This document shows, piece after piece, positions 30,196 through 32,746 of a stretch of 64,000 nucleotides of DNA. Source of the DNA: a virus. Location of the stretch: UHGV virus genome UHGV-0326994; one strand, written 5' to 3'. The first letter of the stretch is position 1; each line of letters begins with the position of its first letter. A model generated the notes under the pieces. It did no database searches, was not told the origin of the DNA, and saw nothing but the letters and a program-made list of their open reading frames with translations. The position numbers and the translations under genes are program-made.

Positions 30196-30329
30196 ACCAG
30201 ACCGTTGTTTATCATCTTAAGTGCTACCATTACACCAACTCGACATCTGCCGAGTGAAGGAATCGAACCTTCGCCTTTTCTTTACCGGAGAAATAGATTG
30301 TTTAAGTTTTGCTGTAAACGGTCTTCTGT
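30196..30329 (-). ncRNA. candidate structured RNA: long terminal stem enclosing a permuted tRNA-like module (Y-RNA-like?)
   Basis: Minus-sense CAGAAGACCGTT pairs with AACGGTCTGG ~110 nt away; interior has hairpin TTTCT CCGGTAA AGAAA, T-arm GAAGGTTCGATTCCTTC, closed acceptor-like stem ACTCG(N8)CGAGT and D-arm-like GTG TAATGGTAG CAC. Confidence 0.35.
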
Positions 30330-30340
30330 AAATTTGTTGA

Positions 30341-30416
30341 GCCAGACCAAGTTTTAAATTTTCAAAATTAAATTGGCTTGAAATTTCATACATTCTTGCT
30401 GAATTTGGTCTTCTGC
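30341..30416 (-). repeat. hairpin repeat family member B (CAGAAGACC...GGTCTGG)
   Basis: Inverted repeat ccagaccaa / ttggtcttctg enclosing ~50 nt AT-rich loop. Confidence 0.5.
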
Positions 30417-30502
30417 TCCTTTAAAGAATACTCGCAAGAACTCTTTAAGGGAGGGGCTAAATAGCCCTCTCAAAACATCATTTTGAAATACTTATTATAA
30501 TT

Positions 30503-30580
30503 TGGCGGTTACGAAGGGATTTGAACCCTCATCATCTCCCGTGACAGGGGAGTATTTTAACCAGATTAAACTACATAACC
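30503..30580 (-). tRNA. tRNA-Asp (anticodon GUC)
   Basis: Anticodon stem-loop CTCCC CTGTCAC GGGAG; discriminator G; CCA encoded. Confidence 0.7.
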
Positions 30581-30585
30581 TTTAT

Positions 30586-30673
30586 TGGTGTGCCGTGTAG
30601 GAGTCGAACCTACCGAGTCTCAATGACAAGGGATTTACAGTCCCCACCGCTACCATCTACGGGATAACGACAC
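30586..30673 (-). tRNA. tRNA-Tyr (anticodon GUA), class II
   Basis: 88 nt; anticodon stem-loop GGGGA CTGTAAA TCCCT; long variable arm; CCA encoded. Confidence 0.7.
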
Positions 30674-30682
30674 ATTTAAATT

Positions 30683-30760
30683 TGGCGGTTAGTCAGGGAT
30701 TCGAACCCTGTGCCATTCGCTTAACAGGCGACCGCACATACCTTATGTGCTTCCTAACCT
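30683..30760 (-). tRNA. tRNA-Asn (anticodon GUU)
   Basis: D-arm GCAC ATAAGGTAT GTGC; anticodon loop CTGTTAA; CCA encoded. Confidence 0.6.
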
Positions 30761-30770
30761 TAATACATTG

Positions 30771-30831
30771 CCAGACCGTGTTTTTCTTTTATCCGCAAAA
30801 AGTAGTTTGTTGCTGAATACGGTCTTCTGCA
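30771..30831 (-). repeat. hairpin repeat family member C
   Basis: Inverted repeat ccagaccgt / acggtcttctg directly downstream of the tRNA-Met 3' end. Confidence 0.5.
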
Positions 30832-30836
30832 AAATT

Positions 30837-30913
30837 GGAGGCGGGTGCAGGAGTCGAACCTGCCGATACCATGCTAATGAGACATGTGAGACGCCCTTTC
30901 TCTATACCCGCAA
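30837..30913 (-). tRNA. tRNA-Met (anticodon CAU), second copy with 1-72 mismatch
   Basis: Anticodon stem-loop CATGT CTCATTA GCATG; D-stem GAGA/TCTC; acceptor pairs 2-7 good, 1-72 U-C mismatch; CCA encoded. Confidence 0.5.
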
Positions 30914-30922
30914 TTCTTAATG

Positions 30923-30998
30923 ACCAGACCAAATCTCTTCTTTGTCCGATTGAATGTCAGATGAATAAGATTAAATTTGCTGCAATTGGTCTTCTGTC
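30923..30998 (-). repeat. hairpin repeat family member D
   Basis: Inverted repeat ccagaccaa / ttggtcttctg directly downstream of the tRNA-Glu 3' end. Confidence 0.5.
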
Positions 30999-31004
30999 AA
31001 AACT

Positions 31005-31082
31005 GGCGTTCCAGAAGGGATTTGAACCCTCAAATATCCACTTTGAAAGAGTGGTGACTTTACCATTTTGTCTACTGGAACA
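31005..31082 (-). tRNA. tRNA-Glu (anticodon UUC)
   Basis: Anticodon stem-loop CCACT CTTTCAA AGTGG; CCA encoded. Confidence 0.7.
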
Positions 31083-31089
31083 TTAATTT

Positions 31090-31165
31090 GGTCTCTGTTG
31101 GAGGACTTGAACCTCCGGCCTTACCGCCCCAAACGGAACGCTCTACCAAGCTGAGCTAAACAGAG
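31090..31165 (-). tRNA. tRNA-Pro (anticodon UGG)
   Basis: D-arm GCTC AGCTTGGTAGA GC; anticodon loop TTTGGGG; T-arm GGAGGTTCAAGTCCTCC; CCA encoded. Confidence 0.7.
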
Positions 31166-31288
31166 ATAAACTTTTCAAACTCTATGTAACCACTTTAACA
31201 TTATTTTTTAGTGGTTGTCAAGAACTTTTTTAAAATATTTTTCAGTATCTTAGAAAAGCTCTCATTTCGTTTCTATGTAGAACATATT

Positions 31289-31326
31289 AAAGGGTATCAA
31301 ACACATTGTCAATACCCTTTTTAAAA
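31289..31326. terminator. terminator hairpin between tRNA-Pro and the vWA gene
   Basis: aagggtat-caaacacattgtca-ataccctt followed by ttttt. Confidence 0.5.
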
Positions 31327-31330
31327 CTTT

Positions 31331-32746
31331 TTACCAGATGTAACGGTCAATCATTACTGCTTTGAGCATTACGCTGATTGGGTCAAACTTCTCACCACCA
31401 AGCAGAGCTTTTAAAGTGGCTGGAGAGAACCCTGATACCATTGCTACACCATTATCCTTAACGGATACTTCGCAAGTACCATTACGGTTTGCTAAGTACC
31501 AGAATACCAGTTGTGGCATTTCGTATCCAGCTTTTTTGTACTTACTCTGAATTGCTTCAAAGTTTGTACGACCATTTGCACCGTCAACCTGATTAAACTC
31601 CATATCAGAGAAGATAATAAGCTTACTTGGCATATCTTTCTGAGTCAAGTTGTTTCTCTTACCTACCTCAAGAATACGGTCAAAAGCTGCTTGTAAGTTA
31701 GTTGAACCATATTCAACATGACGCATTACCTGACGATGACGGTTTCGTAAATCACCACTCAGTTCGATGAAGTGAGGGTTTGTTGAGTAAACCATTAACT
31801 CATTCTTAAAGCAACCAGTGTTGCGTTCTGCTACATACAAAGCAAGTGATACACCAATATCAAGGGCAGTGATTGAACCAAGATTCACCCAAGACATTGA
31901 GCTTGAAACATCAGTCATACACAAGATGTTCTCACCTTCTGCCATCCAGTTTGGTAGTGCTTTCCACTGCTCATTAGCAACATCTGCATTACCATGCTTG
32001 ATAGACTTAATCACATCGTATGGGTAGACAGCACCAGCATTAATCTTAGCCTCACCTTTTGATAAGGACTCAATGTAAGCTTTGTAGCGTTCTCCATCTT
32101 TGCGGTTAAAGAGCTTTTGGTAACGTGCAGCAGCAAGAGACGGAATCTTACTGTAGTCAATCTTACCAAACTCATTAGCCGAGATTTTTTGCTCAACTGT
32201 ATCAGATAGTGCAGATAACAGTGTGCGATACTCTTTCTCGCTCAAGTTTGCAAACTTACAGAAACGTTTTACAAAATGTTTGTGACGTGGTTTTACTCGT
32301 GGTAACCACTTAGCTGCTAAACCTGCTGTTGCAGGGTCTAGTAGTGCTGCTTCTAAATGTTTGAAGGCATCTGTCTCGAAACGAGTACCTACAAAGATTT
32401 TGAAGTCATCAAAGCGACCAAGCTCTGCAATCTTATCCATAATGCGAAGAACCTGTGTAGGTTCTAGAACTTTATCTTCAATCGCTTGAAGTAAAACAGT
32501 TCGGAAAGCTTTACGCTCACCCATACCTTCTCGTACATCTCGCATATGCAGTAAAATACGAACTGCAACATCAACATCCTCATGCAAGGCTTTGTAGAAC
32601 AAGTCTGGTAAGATTTCTACATTGCTACGGCTAGAACCAGCAGCTTTGTAAAAGTCCACAAGAGCAGACATTGATGAAGTATGGTTTACAGCACCATTTT
32701 CAGTTCGACCTGCATGAAGGTGCGCATGTTTAAATAATTCGCTCAT
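31331..32746 (-). CDS. vWA-domain protein with MIDAS motif; possibly Ro60/TROVE-like
   Basis: 471 aa; helical N-terminal ~270 aa; C-terminal vWA fold with DxSxS MIDAS (CMTDVSSSMS) and LIIFSDMEF strand. Confidence 0.55.
   Translation of the reverse strand: MSELFKHAHLHAGRTENGAVNHTSSMSALVDFYKAAGSSRSNVEILPDLFYKALHEDVDVAVRILLHMRDVREGMGERKAFRTVLLQAIEDKVLEPTQVLRIMDKIAELGRFDDFKIFVGTRFETDAFKHLEAALLDPATAGLAAKWLPRVKPRHKHFVKRFCKFANLSEKEYRTLLSALSDTVEQKISANEFGKIDYSKIPSLAAARYQKLFNRKDGERYKAYIESLSKGEAKINAGAVYPYDVIKSIKHGNADVANEQWKALPNWMAEGENILCMTDVSSSMSWVNLGSITALDIGVSLALYVAERNTGCFKNELMVYSTNPHFIELSGDLRNRHRQVMRHVEYGSTNLQAAFDRILEVGKRNNLTQKDMPSKLIIFSDMEFNQVDGANGRTNFEAIQSKYKKAGYEMPQLVFWYLANRNGTCEVSVKDNGVAMVSGFSPATLKALLGGEKFDPISVMLKAVMIDRYIW

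What the first reader, a model, noticed from the sequence alone, without database searches (positions are those of the whole stretch)
30196..32746. Possible Ro60-like protein plus tRNA-like structured RNAs inside the tRNA array
The 471 aa protein at 31331-32746 has a clear C-terminal vWA fold with a MIDAS motif (CMTDVSSSMS) after a ~270 aa helical N-domain, the same two-part layout as Ro60/Rsr (TROVE plus vWA). About 1 kb away, at 30196-30329 on the same strand, a long terminal stem (CAGAAGACCGTT / AACGGTCTGG) encloses a permuted tRNA-like module: T-arm, D-arm-like hairpin and a loop-closed acceptor-like stem. That is the architecture described for bacterial YrlA-type Y RNAs, which are encoded next to rsr. 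Three shorter hairpins share the same terminal stem sequence. If this holds, it is a phage-encoded Ro60/Y-RNA-like ribonucleoprotein in a Felix O1-like genome. I cannot confirm the N-domain is TROVE by eye.
Basis: partly seen in the sequence, partly recalled or inferred. Interest (0 to 1): 0.8.

Follow-up and report, generated by a model that had tools for sequence, protein, structure and literature searches.

The report
Phage Ro60-like protein with Y-like RNAs
A Felix O1-type phage encodes a ring-shaped Ro60-like RNA-binding protein, and its tRNA gene cluster just downstream holds four small structured RNAs (one a rearranged tRNA look-alike) that share a sequence 'handle' found beside the same protein gene in many unrelated phages, so they are very probably the protein's RNA partners.

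Summary

Element 30194-30331 is a YrlA-type RNA: closing stem, hairpin, T arm, loop-closed 7-bp acceptor-like stem, D arm. A covariance model built only from distant phage loci finds it at 60 bits (E 2e-12). Three shorter RNAs (30340-30417, 30768-30832, 30921-30999) share its closing module.

New here: that module (7-bp covarying stem, UUA-CAGCAA, 3' C-U-G) lies on the gene strand beside DUF2828 genes in 43-45 of 70 distant phage loci, against 6-10 hits for control hexamers. It differs from the canonical GNCGAA Ro-binding motif. Rfam YrlA does not reach threshold.

Prior art: a 2024 preprint noted Ro60 similarity for the Bas63 orthologue gp130 and guessed at Y RNAs without finding them.

This is a new variant of the Ro60/Y-RNA kind. 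Binding and expression are untested. The module also resembles Dictyostelium Class I RNAs.

The parts
31331..32746 (-). Gene for a 471-aa Ro60-fold protein: N-terminal TROVE-like helical ring (about residues 1-265) plus a C-terminal vWA domain with MIDAS (D279, S281, S283, T349, D381). Orthologue of Bas63 gp130.
32786..32815 (-). Promoter-like site (TTGACA-N18-TAAAGT) upstream of the Ro-like gene.
   Evidence: Consensus scan only; the number of sites is not above shuffles, so this is a lead, not evidence.
31192..31312 (-). Two promoter-like sites (31284-31312 and 31192-31221) between the gene's stop codon and tRNA-Pro. Possible start of the tRNA/Y-like RNA transcript.
   Evidence: Consensus scan. 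The site at 31221-31192 has the same TTGACA-N18-TAAAGT form as the one before the gene.
30921..30999 (-). Short Y-like RNA 'el4'. Outer helix UGAC/GUCA, AGA/G internal loop, inner helix AGACCAA/UUGGUCU, UUG-CAGCAA, variable interior. It fills the spacer between tRNA-Glu (31004-31081) and tRNA-Met (30836-30912).
   Evidence: Conserved in Ounavirinae.
30768..30832 (-). Short Y-like RNA 'el3'. Outer helix UUGC/GCAA (UUAC/GUAA in orthologues), inner helix AGACCGU/ACGGUCU, AUU-CAGCAA. It fills the spacer between tRNA-Met (30836-30912) and tRNA-Asn (30683-30759).
   Evidence: Module model R1 gives 25.8 bits, E 0.004 over the whole window. R2 gives 22 bits.
30340..30417 (-). Short Y-like RNA 'el2'. 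Outer helix AGC/GCU, inner helix AGACCAA/UUGGUCU, AUU-CAGCAA, conserved interior hairpin.
   Evidence: R1 gives 20.3 bits, E 0.065.
30194..30331 (-). Long YrlA-type RNA 'el1'. Closing module (UUAC/GUAA, AGA/G loop, AGACCGU/ACGGUCU, UUA-CAGCAA) enclosing a circularly permuted tRNA-like domain.
   Evidence: Independent model R2 gives 60.1 bits, E 2.4e-12, full length. RNAalifold on 13 relatives finds 18 of 22 pairs with compensatory changes. The acceptor-like stem is wholly different yet still paired in Sf13 and Maleficent.
30277..30293 (-). el1 'V' hairpin: UUUCU-CCGGUAA-AGAAA (5 bp, 7-nt loop), aligned by Rfam's tRNA model to the anticodon arm.
30256..30272 (-). el1 T arm: GAAGG-UUCGAUU-CCUUC.
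30238..30255 (-). el1 acceptor-like stem: ACUCGGC-AGAU-GUCGAGU (7 bp, loop-closed).
30221..30235 (-). el1 D arm: GUGU-AAUGGUA-GCAC.
30044..30200 (-). Further structured RNA 'el0', abutting el1 and tRNA-Lys. About 23-bp terminal helix and an inner mini-hairpin CAGAC-CUUAAGCAA-GUCUG whose loop carries an AGCAA motif. Whether it belongs to the system is uncertain.
   Evidence: MFE -50.5 kcal/mol, z -4.55. Conserved, with 5 compensatory pairs between two clades.

Best explanation
The region encodes a phage Ro60/Y-RNA-type ribonucleoprotein of a divergent (DUF2828) lineage.

1. Protein (shown by modelling). The 471-aa protein folds as a Ro60-like ring: a TROVE HEAT-repeat torus closed by a vWA/MIDAS domain.

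2. Transcription and processing (inferred). Downstream on the same strand, four small RNAs are transcribed with the tRNA array. el3 and el4 fill inter-tRNA spacers to within 2-9 nt of the neighbouring tRNAs. RNase P and the tRNA 3'-end processing enzymes would therefore release them as roughly 65-140-nt RNAs whose ends are locked in a helix.

3. Protein handle (module shown; binding inferred). Each RNA carries the same handle:
- a 7-bp helix whose sequence varies but whose second pair is G-C
- single-stranded U-U-A/U-CAGCAA directly 3' of the 5' strand
- an unpaired G after the 3' strand (3' C-U-G)
That the protein binds this handle is inferred from its co-occurrence with the gene across unrelated phages, and by analogy with Ro60 binding the conserved Y-RNA helix.

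4. Effector part (architecture shown; role inferred). The variable interior is the effector. In el1 it is a circularly permuted tRNA mimic (T arm, loop-closed acceptor stem, D arm) of the YrlA type. It cannot be aminoacylated but could engage tRNA-binding enzymes or nucleases. The three short RNAs are YrlB-like partners.

5. Function (inferred). The RNP most likely acts in RNA surveillance and counter-defence during infection. It would gate or tether the ring to host RNA enzymes (as Y RNA tethers Rsr to PNPase) or act as a decoy for tRNA-directed defences.

The orthologue Bas63 gp130 is an experimentally shown counter of the 'ppl' defence system (literature).
For: Protein fold.
- AF2 pLDDT 88.2, pTM 0.88.
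- Foldseek hits 1-10 are all Ro60/TROVE over the full length (E 2.6e-9, TM 0.65).
- The MIDAS residues are invariant.
- Homologues in mycobacteriophages are annotated 'Ro-like RNA binding protein'.

RNA family.
- A model built from 7 distant elements, with no Ounavirinae sequence, finds el1 at 60.1 bits, E 2.4e-12. The next hit, at 28 bits, is a tandem-tRNA junction.
- The same model gives 47 hits at E<=0.01 in 70 distant loci, all on the gene strand.
- RNAalifold recovers the closing stem, T arm, acceptor-like stem and D arm, with 18 of 22 pairs showing compensatory changes.
- Rfam YrlA hits such elements in L001, L027 and L037 at 38-41 bits, E 1e-5 to 1e-4.

Module and gene association, in 598 kb of distant loci (39-53% protein identity).
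- CAGCAA with a perfect 7-bp closing stem at 3-nt spacing occurs 78 times in 45 loci on the gene strand, against 11 times on the other strand.
- Seven permuted control hexamers give 6-10 hits each; the one-base-shifted ACAGCA gives 41, as expected from its overlap with the motif.
- 65 of 78 hits are followed by G, and there are 39 distinct stems.
- The module also occurs where no tRNA genes are nearby, for example L031.

Context. The elements sit 0.3-1.1 kb downstream of the gene on the same strand, filling tRNA spacers.

Function. Deleting Bas63 gp130 sensitises the phage to ppl, and the gene transfers protection to T7.
Against: - No expression or binding data exist for these RNAs.
- Folding energies of el1-el4 are not exceptional (z -0.5 to -2.1).
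- Rfam YrlA gives no hit on the window even at E<=10, and the canonical Ro-binding motif GNCGAAN0-1G is absent.
- Pfam TROVE does not match; sequence similarity to Ro60 is marginal (E 0.42, vWA part only).
- gp130 alone, expressed from a plasmid or from T7 without the Bas63 RNAs, counters ppl. The RNAs are therefore not needed for that activity, unless host RNAs substitute.
- 27 of 70 distant loci show no module carrying both the G2 and 3'-G features within 4 kb.
- The seeds for the module alignment were selected for perfect stems, so the covariation count on them is circular. Only the control-motif and strand comparisons are independent.
Confidence: 0.75

Rival explanations
1. The elements are cis-acting handles on the polycistronic tRNA precursor rather than stable trans-acting RNAs. 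The Ro-like ring would dock on them to chaperone, check or protect the phage's own tRNA precursor, and the spacers would be degraded after processing.
For: el3 and el4 are exactly the inter-tRNA spacers. Ro60 is known to bind misfolded RNA precursors (established knowledge; PDB 2i91 and 9nep titles). Several other DUF2828 loci also sit next to tRNA clusters: Campylobacter CP8 and Yersinia P778.
Against: The module occurs beside the gene in loci with no tRNA genes nearby, for example L031. el1's complete, covarying tRNA-like domain looks like a finished molecule, and its relatives match Rfam YrlA.
Confidence: 0.12
2. The elements are features of tRNA-array architecture unrelated to the protein: processing signals (RNase E or RNase III sites), spacer repeats, or a decayed or rearranged tRNA pseudogene (el1). 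Their adjacency to the gene would be incidental.
For: They lie in a 25-tRNA array that also holds an HNH endonuclease gene and a weak tRNA-like remnant. Some records annotate 'tRNA-OTHER' or pseudo-tRNA here. Folding z-scores are modest.
Against: The same module is linked to the DUF2828 gene in phages of Mycobacterium, Campylobacter, Yersinia and many uncultured lineages, and only on the gene strand. The acceptor-like stem of el1 is replaced by unrelated but still paired sequences in Sf13 and Maleficent, which a decaying pseudogene would not show.
Confidence: 0.05
3. The protein works essentially alone as an inhibitor of a host defence protein (ppl), using its vWA/MIDAS face. The RNAs would only regulate or sequester it, for example as an autoregulatory sponge or a timing device, rather than forming the active RNP.
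For: gp130 alone rescues T7 on ppl hosts and even improves plating without defence. MIDAS sites are classic protein-binding sites (established knowledge). LeBron gp53 is toxic when overexpressed alone.
Against: It does not explain why a tRNA-mimic domain and up to four or five RNA genes are maintained next to the gene across lineages. Host RNAs could substitute in the T7 experiment.
Confidence: 0.08

Closest known systems
Bacterial Ro60 (Rsr) with YrlA/YrlB Y RNAs (Salmonella Typhimurium, Mycobacterium smegmatis; Chen et al. 2014, PMC4201824; Rfam RF02553)
   Same: Ring protein made of a TROVE-like domain plus vWA/MIDAS. RNA genes lie within 4 kb on the same strand. One RNA has a tRNA-like domain in the order V, T arm, acceptor-like stem-loop, D arm, enclosed by a long stem, and shorter RNAs share only the protein-binding part.
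   Different: The protein is Pfam DUF2828/DUF7788, not TROVE. The presumed binding module is stem + UUACAGCAA + 3' CUG instead of GNCGAAN0-1G. The Rfam score is nil for the window element and 38-41 bits (GA 69) for relatives. The RNAs are embedded in a phage tRNA array, and there is no rtcBA repair operon beside them.
Thermus phage phiLo Ro60 with Yrl1/Yrl2 (PMC12135203; PDB 9KOP, 9L5Y)
   Different: phiLo Ro60 is a recognisable TROVE protein. Its Yrls carry the CGAA motif and lie upstream of the gene. No tRNA-like domain or tRNA array is reported.
Bas63 (Escherichia phage JohannRWettstein) gp130 (bioRxiv 10.1101/2024.10.10.617714)
   Different: No Y RNA was identified there. Here they are located in the spacers, not among the annotated tRNAs. 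In Bas63 the el1 orthologue (L090 4263-4389, 60 bits) overlaps bas63_0137 (4230-4382), a small opposite-strand 'hypothetical protein'.
Dictyostelium Class I RNAs (Rfam RF01414; Kjellin et al. 2021, PMC7919456)
   Same: About 60-nt RNAs with a short covarying helix joining the 5' and 3' ends, a conserved 5' G paired to the C of a 3' CUG(U), the 11-nt motif CCUUACAGCAA directly after the 5' strand, and a variable interior. Many distant phage elements read GGNNNCC-UUACAGCAA...GGNNNCC-UG. RF01414 is the top-ranked Rfam family on them at 25-29 bits.
   Different: All scores are below GA 41.5 and not significant after correcting for 4227 families. The only known direct binder of Class I RNA is the RRM protein Rnp1A. 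Whether Dictyostelium has a DUF2828 protein could not be tested here. The window's own elements match the motif less well (7-9 of 11).
Phage T4 stable RNAs species 1 and 2 (rnaC, rnaD) in the tRNA cluster (from my own knowledge)
   Same: Small stable RNAs of unknown function co-transcribed and co-processed with phage tRNAs.
   Different: No known protein partner. I did not compare sequences, so this is a lead only.

Membership tests
Ro60 / TROVE protein family | Closed ring of HEAT-like repeats (TROVE) joined to a vWA domain | tested here: met
Ro60 / TROVE protein family | MIDAS motif (DxSxS...T...D) in the vWA domain | tested here: met
   D279, S281, S283, T349 and D381 are invariant in 45 homologues.
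Ro60 / TROVE protein family | Sequence match to Pfam TROVE (PF05731) | tested here: not met
   Only DUF7788 (1e-43) and DUF2828 (1e-29) at E<=1. Same result for four distant homologues. A profile search against PDB gives Ro60 at E 0.42, vWA part only.
Ro60 / TROVE protein family | Binds Y RNA on the outer surface and single-stranded RNA in the central hole | not testable with these tools
   Needs EMSA, CLIP or a structure.
YrlA (Rfam RF02553) | tRNA-like domain in the order (V), T arm, acceptor-like stem-loop, D arm, enclosed by a long terminal stem | tested here: met
YrlA (Rfam RF02553) | Score at or above the Rfam gathering threshold (69 bits) | tested here: not met
   No YrlA hit on the window at E<=10, even on a 166-nt slice. 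Relatives in L001, L027 and L037 reach 37.9-41.4 bits.
YrlA (Rfam RF02553) | GNCGAAN0-1G motif near the 5' end (proposed Rsr contact) | tested here: not met
   The 5' region reads ACAGAAGACCGUUUACAGCAA, with no CGAA. The conserved motif is UUACAGCAA instead.
YrlA (Rfam RF02553) | Encoded within 4 kb of the Ro60 gene on the same strand | tested here: met
   1.0 kb downstream, same strand.
YrlA (Rfam RF02553) | tRNA-type modifications (psi55, D) and recognition by tRNA enzymes | not testable with these tools
   Experimental.
Dictyostelium Class I RNA (RF01414) | Short terminal helix with conserved 5' G and 3' CUG(U) | tested here: met
   G-C second pair in 47 of 49 seeds; G after the 3' strand in at least 90%. 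The window elements end ...GGUCUGG.
Dictyostelium Class I RNA (RF01414) | 11-nt motif CCUUACAGCAA next to the 5' strand | tested here: inconclusive
   Exact in many distant phage elements. The window has GUUUACAGCAA, AAAUUCAGCAA, GUAUUCAGCAA and AAUUGCAGCAA.
Dictyostelium Class I RNA (RF01414) | Rfam gathering score (41.5 bits) | tested here: not met
   20 bits (window el3) and 24.9-28.9 bits (L031, L036, L039).

The most novel reading that the evidence does not exclude
The terminal-helix + UUACAGCAA + 3' CUG module may be the signature of a broad, previously unrecognised class of ncRNAs partnered with DUF2828-type Ro60 paralogues. Dictyostelid Class I RNAs are abundant, developmentally regulated, of unknown mechanism, and reported as unique to Dictyostelia. 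They could be members or close analogues of that class. If so, they are Y-RNA-like partners of a Ro-like (DUF2828/TROVE-fold) protein, possibly acquired from or shared with phages or bacteria.
Probability: 0.2. Interest if true: 0.85.

Novelty: new variant of a known kind. Interest (0 to 1): 0.66.

Why it matters
Ro60/Y-RNA particles are conserved from bacteria to humans, yet their mechanism is understood only in outline.

- **A second recognition code.** This work gives a large phage protein family (over 2,800 database clusters; 710 phage records) a concrete RNA partner family. Its recognition module differs from the canonical CGAA motif, so there is now a second natural Ro-like protein/RNA code to compare.
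- **A testable defence question.** It supplies the missing RNA candidates for Bas63 gp130, which is already shown to defeat the ppl defence system and to be transferable to T7. Whether the counter-defence involves an RNP, a tRNA decoy or RNA decay can now be tested directly.
- **Annotation.** In Felix O1-like genomes these RNAs lie unannotated in inter-tRNA spacers, or under spurious small ORFs or 'tRNA-OTHER' calls.
- **Class I RNAs.** If the resemblance to Dictyostelium Class I RNAs reflects a shared protein partner, it would point to a mechanism for a 20-year-old orphan RNA class.

Tried and rejected
1. Rfam YrlA and Y_RNA on the window, in 10-kb, 861-nt and 166-nt slices at E up to 10: no hit. 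The element is too divergent for the curated model. I therefore built my own model from distant relatives.

2. Sequence-only searches of the protein against PDB, with a single sequence and with a profile: nothing significant. Ro60 appeared at E 0.42. NCBIfam gave nothing.

3. A short module model with the interior truncated (R1) recovered el3 and el2, misaligned el4 and missed el1, because long interiors are penalised. I relied instead on an explicit scan with control hexamers and strand controls.

4. My first relaxed Python scan was mis-specified and gave misleadingly low counts; I discarded it.

5. A module-like match at window 12932-13006(+) (R2 20 bits, E 0.013) lies inside a 735-aa ORF on the opposite strand. 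I rejected it as chance.

6. The covariation count on the curated module alignment is circular, because the seeds were chosen for perfect stems. I do not use it as evidence.

7. The Dictyostelium link could not be tested. The afdb50 fold library was unavailable. Avesson 2011 and Aspegren 2004 are not held. Literature searches for DUF2828 identifiers found only plant and tardigrade mentions.

8. The supplementary tables of Chen 2014 (the list of 22 phages) are not held. I could not check whether any DUF2828-type phage was in that set.

9. A search for Felixounavirus transcriptome data found nothing usable.

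
Full report
**What is in the window**

The window is a Felix O1-like (Felixounavirus) genome. The stretch 30050-32800 is 97% identical to Escherichia phage EF202P1 and 93.8% to Felix O1 itself. Everything relevant is on the minus strand. A 471-aa ORF occupies 31331-32746. 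It is followed by an array of 25 tRNA genes spanning 25399-31165.

Between those ends lie four parts:
- a 5-bp hairpin (30277-30293)
- a T arm, GAAGG-UUCGAUU-CCUUC (30256-30272)
- a 7-bp acceptor-like helix closed by the tetraloop AGAU (30238-30255)
- a D arm, GUGU-AAUGGUA-GCAC (30221-30235)

Three shorter elements have the same ends: 30340-30417, 30768-30832 and 30921-30999. The 18-nt pattern GAAGACCNNNNNCAGCAA matches exactly four times in 64 kb, only at these places.

**The protein**

Pfam assigns DUF2828 (N-terminal part) and DUF7788 (the vWA part), and no TROVE. PHROG 850 calls the family 'RNA-binding protein'. Sequence searches against PDB give nothing significant; a profile reaches Ro60 only at E 0.42 and only in the vWA region.

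An AlphaFold2 model built on a 45-sequence alignment is confident (pLDDT 88.2, pTM 0.88).
- In Foldseek against PDB, the ten best hits are all Ro60/TROVE structures aligned over both domains (E 2.6e-9 to 1.3e-7; TM 0.56-0.66 for nine of them, 0.43 for 2nvo). After that the list drops to isolated vWA domains.
- The five MIDAS residues (D279, S281, S283, T349, D381) are invariant.

**The RNAs within Ounavirinae**

All four elements are present at the same positions in Felixounavirus, Mooglevirus (Sf13, Maleficent, Moogle) and Suspvirus. Three changes are informative.
- el1's acceptor-like helix is ACUCGGC/GUCGAGU here, ACACGU/GCGUGU with a UACG loop in Sf13 and SUSP1, and ACCCUUC/GAAGGGU in Maleficent. 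The sequences are unrelated but the pairing is kept.
- el3's outer helix switches between UUGC/GCAA and UUAC/GUAA.
- el2's outer helix changes from GAGC/GCUC to GGAGC/GUUCC.

Folding energy alone is unremarkable (z -0.5 to -2.1). The case rests on conservation of structure.

**The same RNA family beside the same gene in unrelated phages**

I collected 70 distant loci (39-53% protein identity). They comprise metagenomic viral contigs plus Mycobacterium phage Kingsolomon, Yersinia phage P778, Vibrio phage phi-pp2, Aeromonas phage Ah1 and Campylobacter phage CP8.

*Explicit scan.* I looked for CAGCAA preceded, at 3-nt spacing, by a 7-nt strand that pairs perfectly with a strand 8-170 nt downstream.
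- Gene strand: 78 hits in 45 loci.
- Opposite strand: 11 hits.
- Seven permuted control hexamers: 6-10 hits each. The one-base-shifted ACAGCA gives 41, as expected, since it overlaps the motif itself.

Two features the scan did not select for are also conserved. The base after the 3' strand is G in 65 of 78 hits, and the second pair is G-C. There are 39 different stem sequences.

The consensus is 5'-(A/U)G-N5-UUA-CAGCAA ... N5-C(U/A)-G-3'.

*What the interiors hold.* Some are plain or hairpin-containing. Others hold a T arm, an acceptor-like stem-loop and a D arm in the YrlA order. Rfam's YrlA model hits three of these, in L001, L027 and L037, at 37.9-41.4 bits (E 1e-5 to 1e-4). That is below the gathering score of 69.

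*Consensus structure.* RNAalifold on 13 tRNA-like elements recovers the closing stem, T arm, acceptor-like stem and D arm. Compensatory changes occur in 18 of 22 pairs.

*Independent test.* I built a covariance model from seven distant elements only, with no Ounavirinae sequence.
- In the 64-kb window it finds el1 at 30198-30324(-) with 60.1 bits, E 2.4e-12, over the full model length. The runner-up, at 28 bits, is a tandem-tRNA junction. That artefact is expected; Chen et al. also warn of it.
- Over the 70 distant loci it gives 47 hits at E<=0.01, all on the gene strand.
- The module also occurs where no tRNA gene is nearby, for example L031. It therefore travels with the protein gene, not with tRNA arrays.

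**How it probably works**

*Shown:* the fold of the protein; the architecture, conservation and gene linkage of the RNAs.

*From the literature:* Bas63 gp130 counters the ppl defence (an ATPase + PHP-domain protein) and transfers that protection to T7.

*Inferred:*
- The RNAs are transcribed with the tRNA array. Promoter-like sites lie before the gene and between the gene and tRNA-Pro, but this evidence is weak.
- el3 and el4 fill their spacers to within 2-9 nt of the flanking tRNAs, so RNase P and the tRNA 3'-end enzymes would release them.
- The terminal helices protect their ends.
- The ring protein binds the helix/UUACAGCAA/G module, by analogy with Ro60 on the conserved Y-RNA helix.
- The interior is the effector. 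In el1 it is a tRNA mimic with a loop-closed acceptor stem. It cannot be charged, but it presents the T-loop/D-loop elbow.

By analogy with Rsr-Y RNA-PNPase, and with phiLo Ro60-Yrl-PNPase, the RNP would tether or gate host RNA enzymes, or act as a decoy for tRNA-directed defences.

One real tension remains: gp130 alone suffices against ppl in T7. The RNAs may modulate the protein rather than be required, or host RNAs may substitute for them.

**Comparison with what is known**

The system works like Ro60/Rsr with YrlA/YrlB, but it fails three formal membership tests:
- no Pfam TROVE match
- no Rfam YrlA hit on the window
- no GNCGAAN0-1G motif

I therefore class it as a new variant of a known kind: a DUF2828-lineage Ro60 paralogue with its own RNA recognition module and, in this phage, RNA genes interleaved with tRNAs.

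Within the held library I found no description of these RNAs or of the CAGCAA module. The Bas63 preprint looked for the Y RNAs among the annotated tRNA genes. In fact they lie in the spacers. In Bas63 the el1 orthologue overlaps bas63_0137, a small opposite-strand 'hypothetical protein' ORF.

**An unexpected resemblance**

On the short elements, the best-ranked Rfam family is Dicty_Class_I_RNA (RF01414). Scores are 20 bits on window el3 and 24.9-28.9 bits on L031, L036 and L039, all over the full model length. These are below the gathering score (41.5) and not significant after correcting for 4227 families.

The published definition of Class I RNAs nevertheless matches point by point:
- length of about 60 nt
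- a short covarying helix joining the ends
- an invariant 5' G paired to the C of a 3' CUGU
- the 11-nt motif CCUUACAGCAA right after the 5' strand
- a variable interior

Many distant phage elements read GGNNNCC-UUACAGCAA...GGNNNCC-UG. Class I RNAs are reported as unique to Dictyostelia, and their mechanism is unknown. DUF2828 also occurs in eukaryotes (plant papers). I could not test whether Dictyostelium has such a protein. I put the probability of a true relationship at about 0.2.

**Limits**

- There are no expression or binding data.
- The module seeds were selected for perfect stems, so one search is circular.
- Many loci are related to one another, so hits are not independent events.
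- E-values from the home-made models are rough.
- 27 of 70 distant loci show no module carrying both the G2 and 3'-G features within 4 kb. These include the T4-like Vibrio phages.

Noticed in passing
window 30044-30200 (-): A fifth structured RNA ('el0') lies between el1 and tRNA-Lys. It has a terminal helix of about 23 bp (MFE -50.5 kcal/mol, z -4.55) and an inner mini-hairpin, CAGAC-CUUAAGCAA-GUCUG, whose loop carries AGCAA. It is conserved in Moogle and Susp viruses with compensatory changes (CAAAC-CCUUUAGCAAG-GUUUG there). The long perfect helix would suit RNase III. Its 5' strand overlaps el1's outer helix by 3 nt.
   Followed up: partly
window 30420-30502 (-): The spacer between tRNA-Asp and el2 folds into three hairpins (z -3.9), including the G+C-rich GAGGGGCUAAAUAGCCCCUC without a U tail. 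Function unknown.
   Followed up: no
L031 5409-5470; L034 5409-5467; L036 1534-1592; L039 2930-2987 and similar: Short elements directly after the DUF2828 stop codon in a group of metagenomic phages match the Dictyostelium Class I RNA motif CCUUACAGCAA exactly. They carry two further AGCAA copies (AAGCAA, UAGCAA) about 14 nt apart in the interior, which suggests AGCAA is the recognised core and may be bound more than once.
   Followed up: partly
L075 6329-6428: One element encloses a non-permuted tRNA body (Rfam tRNA 55.7 bits, model positions 5-66, i.e. lacking the ends of the acceptor stem) inside the stem/CAGCAA module. The same locus also has two permuted versions. The effector domain is therefore exchangeable.
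   Followed up: no
L090 (Bas63) 4230-4504; Felix O1 L006 1551-1781: Small 'hypothetical protein' ORFs annotated on the opposite strand in Bas63 (bas63_0137, bas63_0138), and ORF94 in Felix O1, overlie the el2/el1/el0 region. Other records call 'tRNA-OTHER' or pseudo-tRNA here. These are probably misannotations of the RNA genes.
   Followed up: partly
window 29002-29446 (-): An HNH endonuclease gene (130 aa, PHROG 2255, E 2e-42) sits inside the tRNA array. A weak tRNA-like match (Rfam tRNA 31.7 bits, 29368-29446) overlaps its start, where Sf13 and Maleficent have tRNA-Arg(TCT). It looks like a homing-endonuclease insertion next to or into a tRNA gene.
   Followed up: no
L001 (Mycobacterium phage Kingsolomon) 1731-2802 and 5462-5719: Three stem/CAGCAA elements in tandem follow the 'Ro-like' gene; the middle one is the Rfam YrlA hit. 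A Band-7-like membrane protein gene followed by a tRNA-Tyr lies 1.2 kb upstream. This recalls the SPFH/Band-7 + tRNA-like pairing that Burroughs and Aravind proposed for RNA repair systems (from my own knowledge).
   Followed up: no
window 34825-36207 (+): A 460-aa ORF holds four tandem repeats of about 90 aa of the Ig-like type (...TGYQWKKDG...AGSYTCVVTG...), resembling Hoc-like decoration proteins. Unrelated to the finding.
   Followed up: no
window 12932-13006 (+): A module-like match (GGGAUAG-UUC-CAGCAA...CUAUCCU-G; R2 20 bits, E 0.013) lies inside a 735-aa ORF on the other strand. Judged to be chance.
   Followed up: yes
window 32828-33199 (-): The gene immediately upstream of the Ro-like gene (123 aa, DUF5681, PHROG 4114) keeps its position across Ounavirinae (bas63_0129, Sf13 gp20, Felix O1 ORF85). 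Its basic N-terminus (KGQSGNPSGRPKGSRNK) might bind nucleic acid. Whether it belongs to the system is unknown.
   Followed up: no
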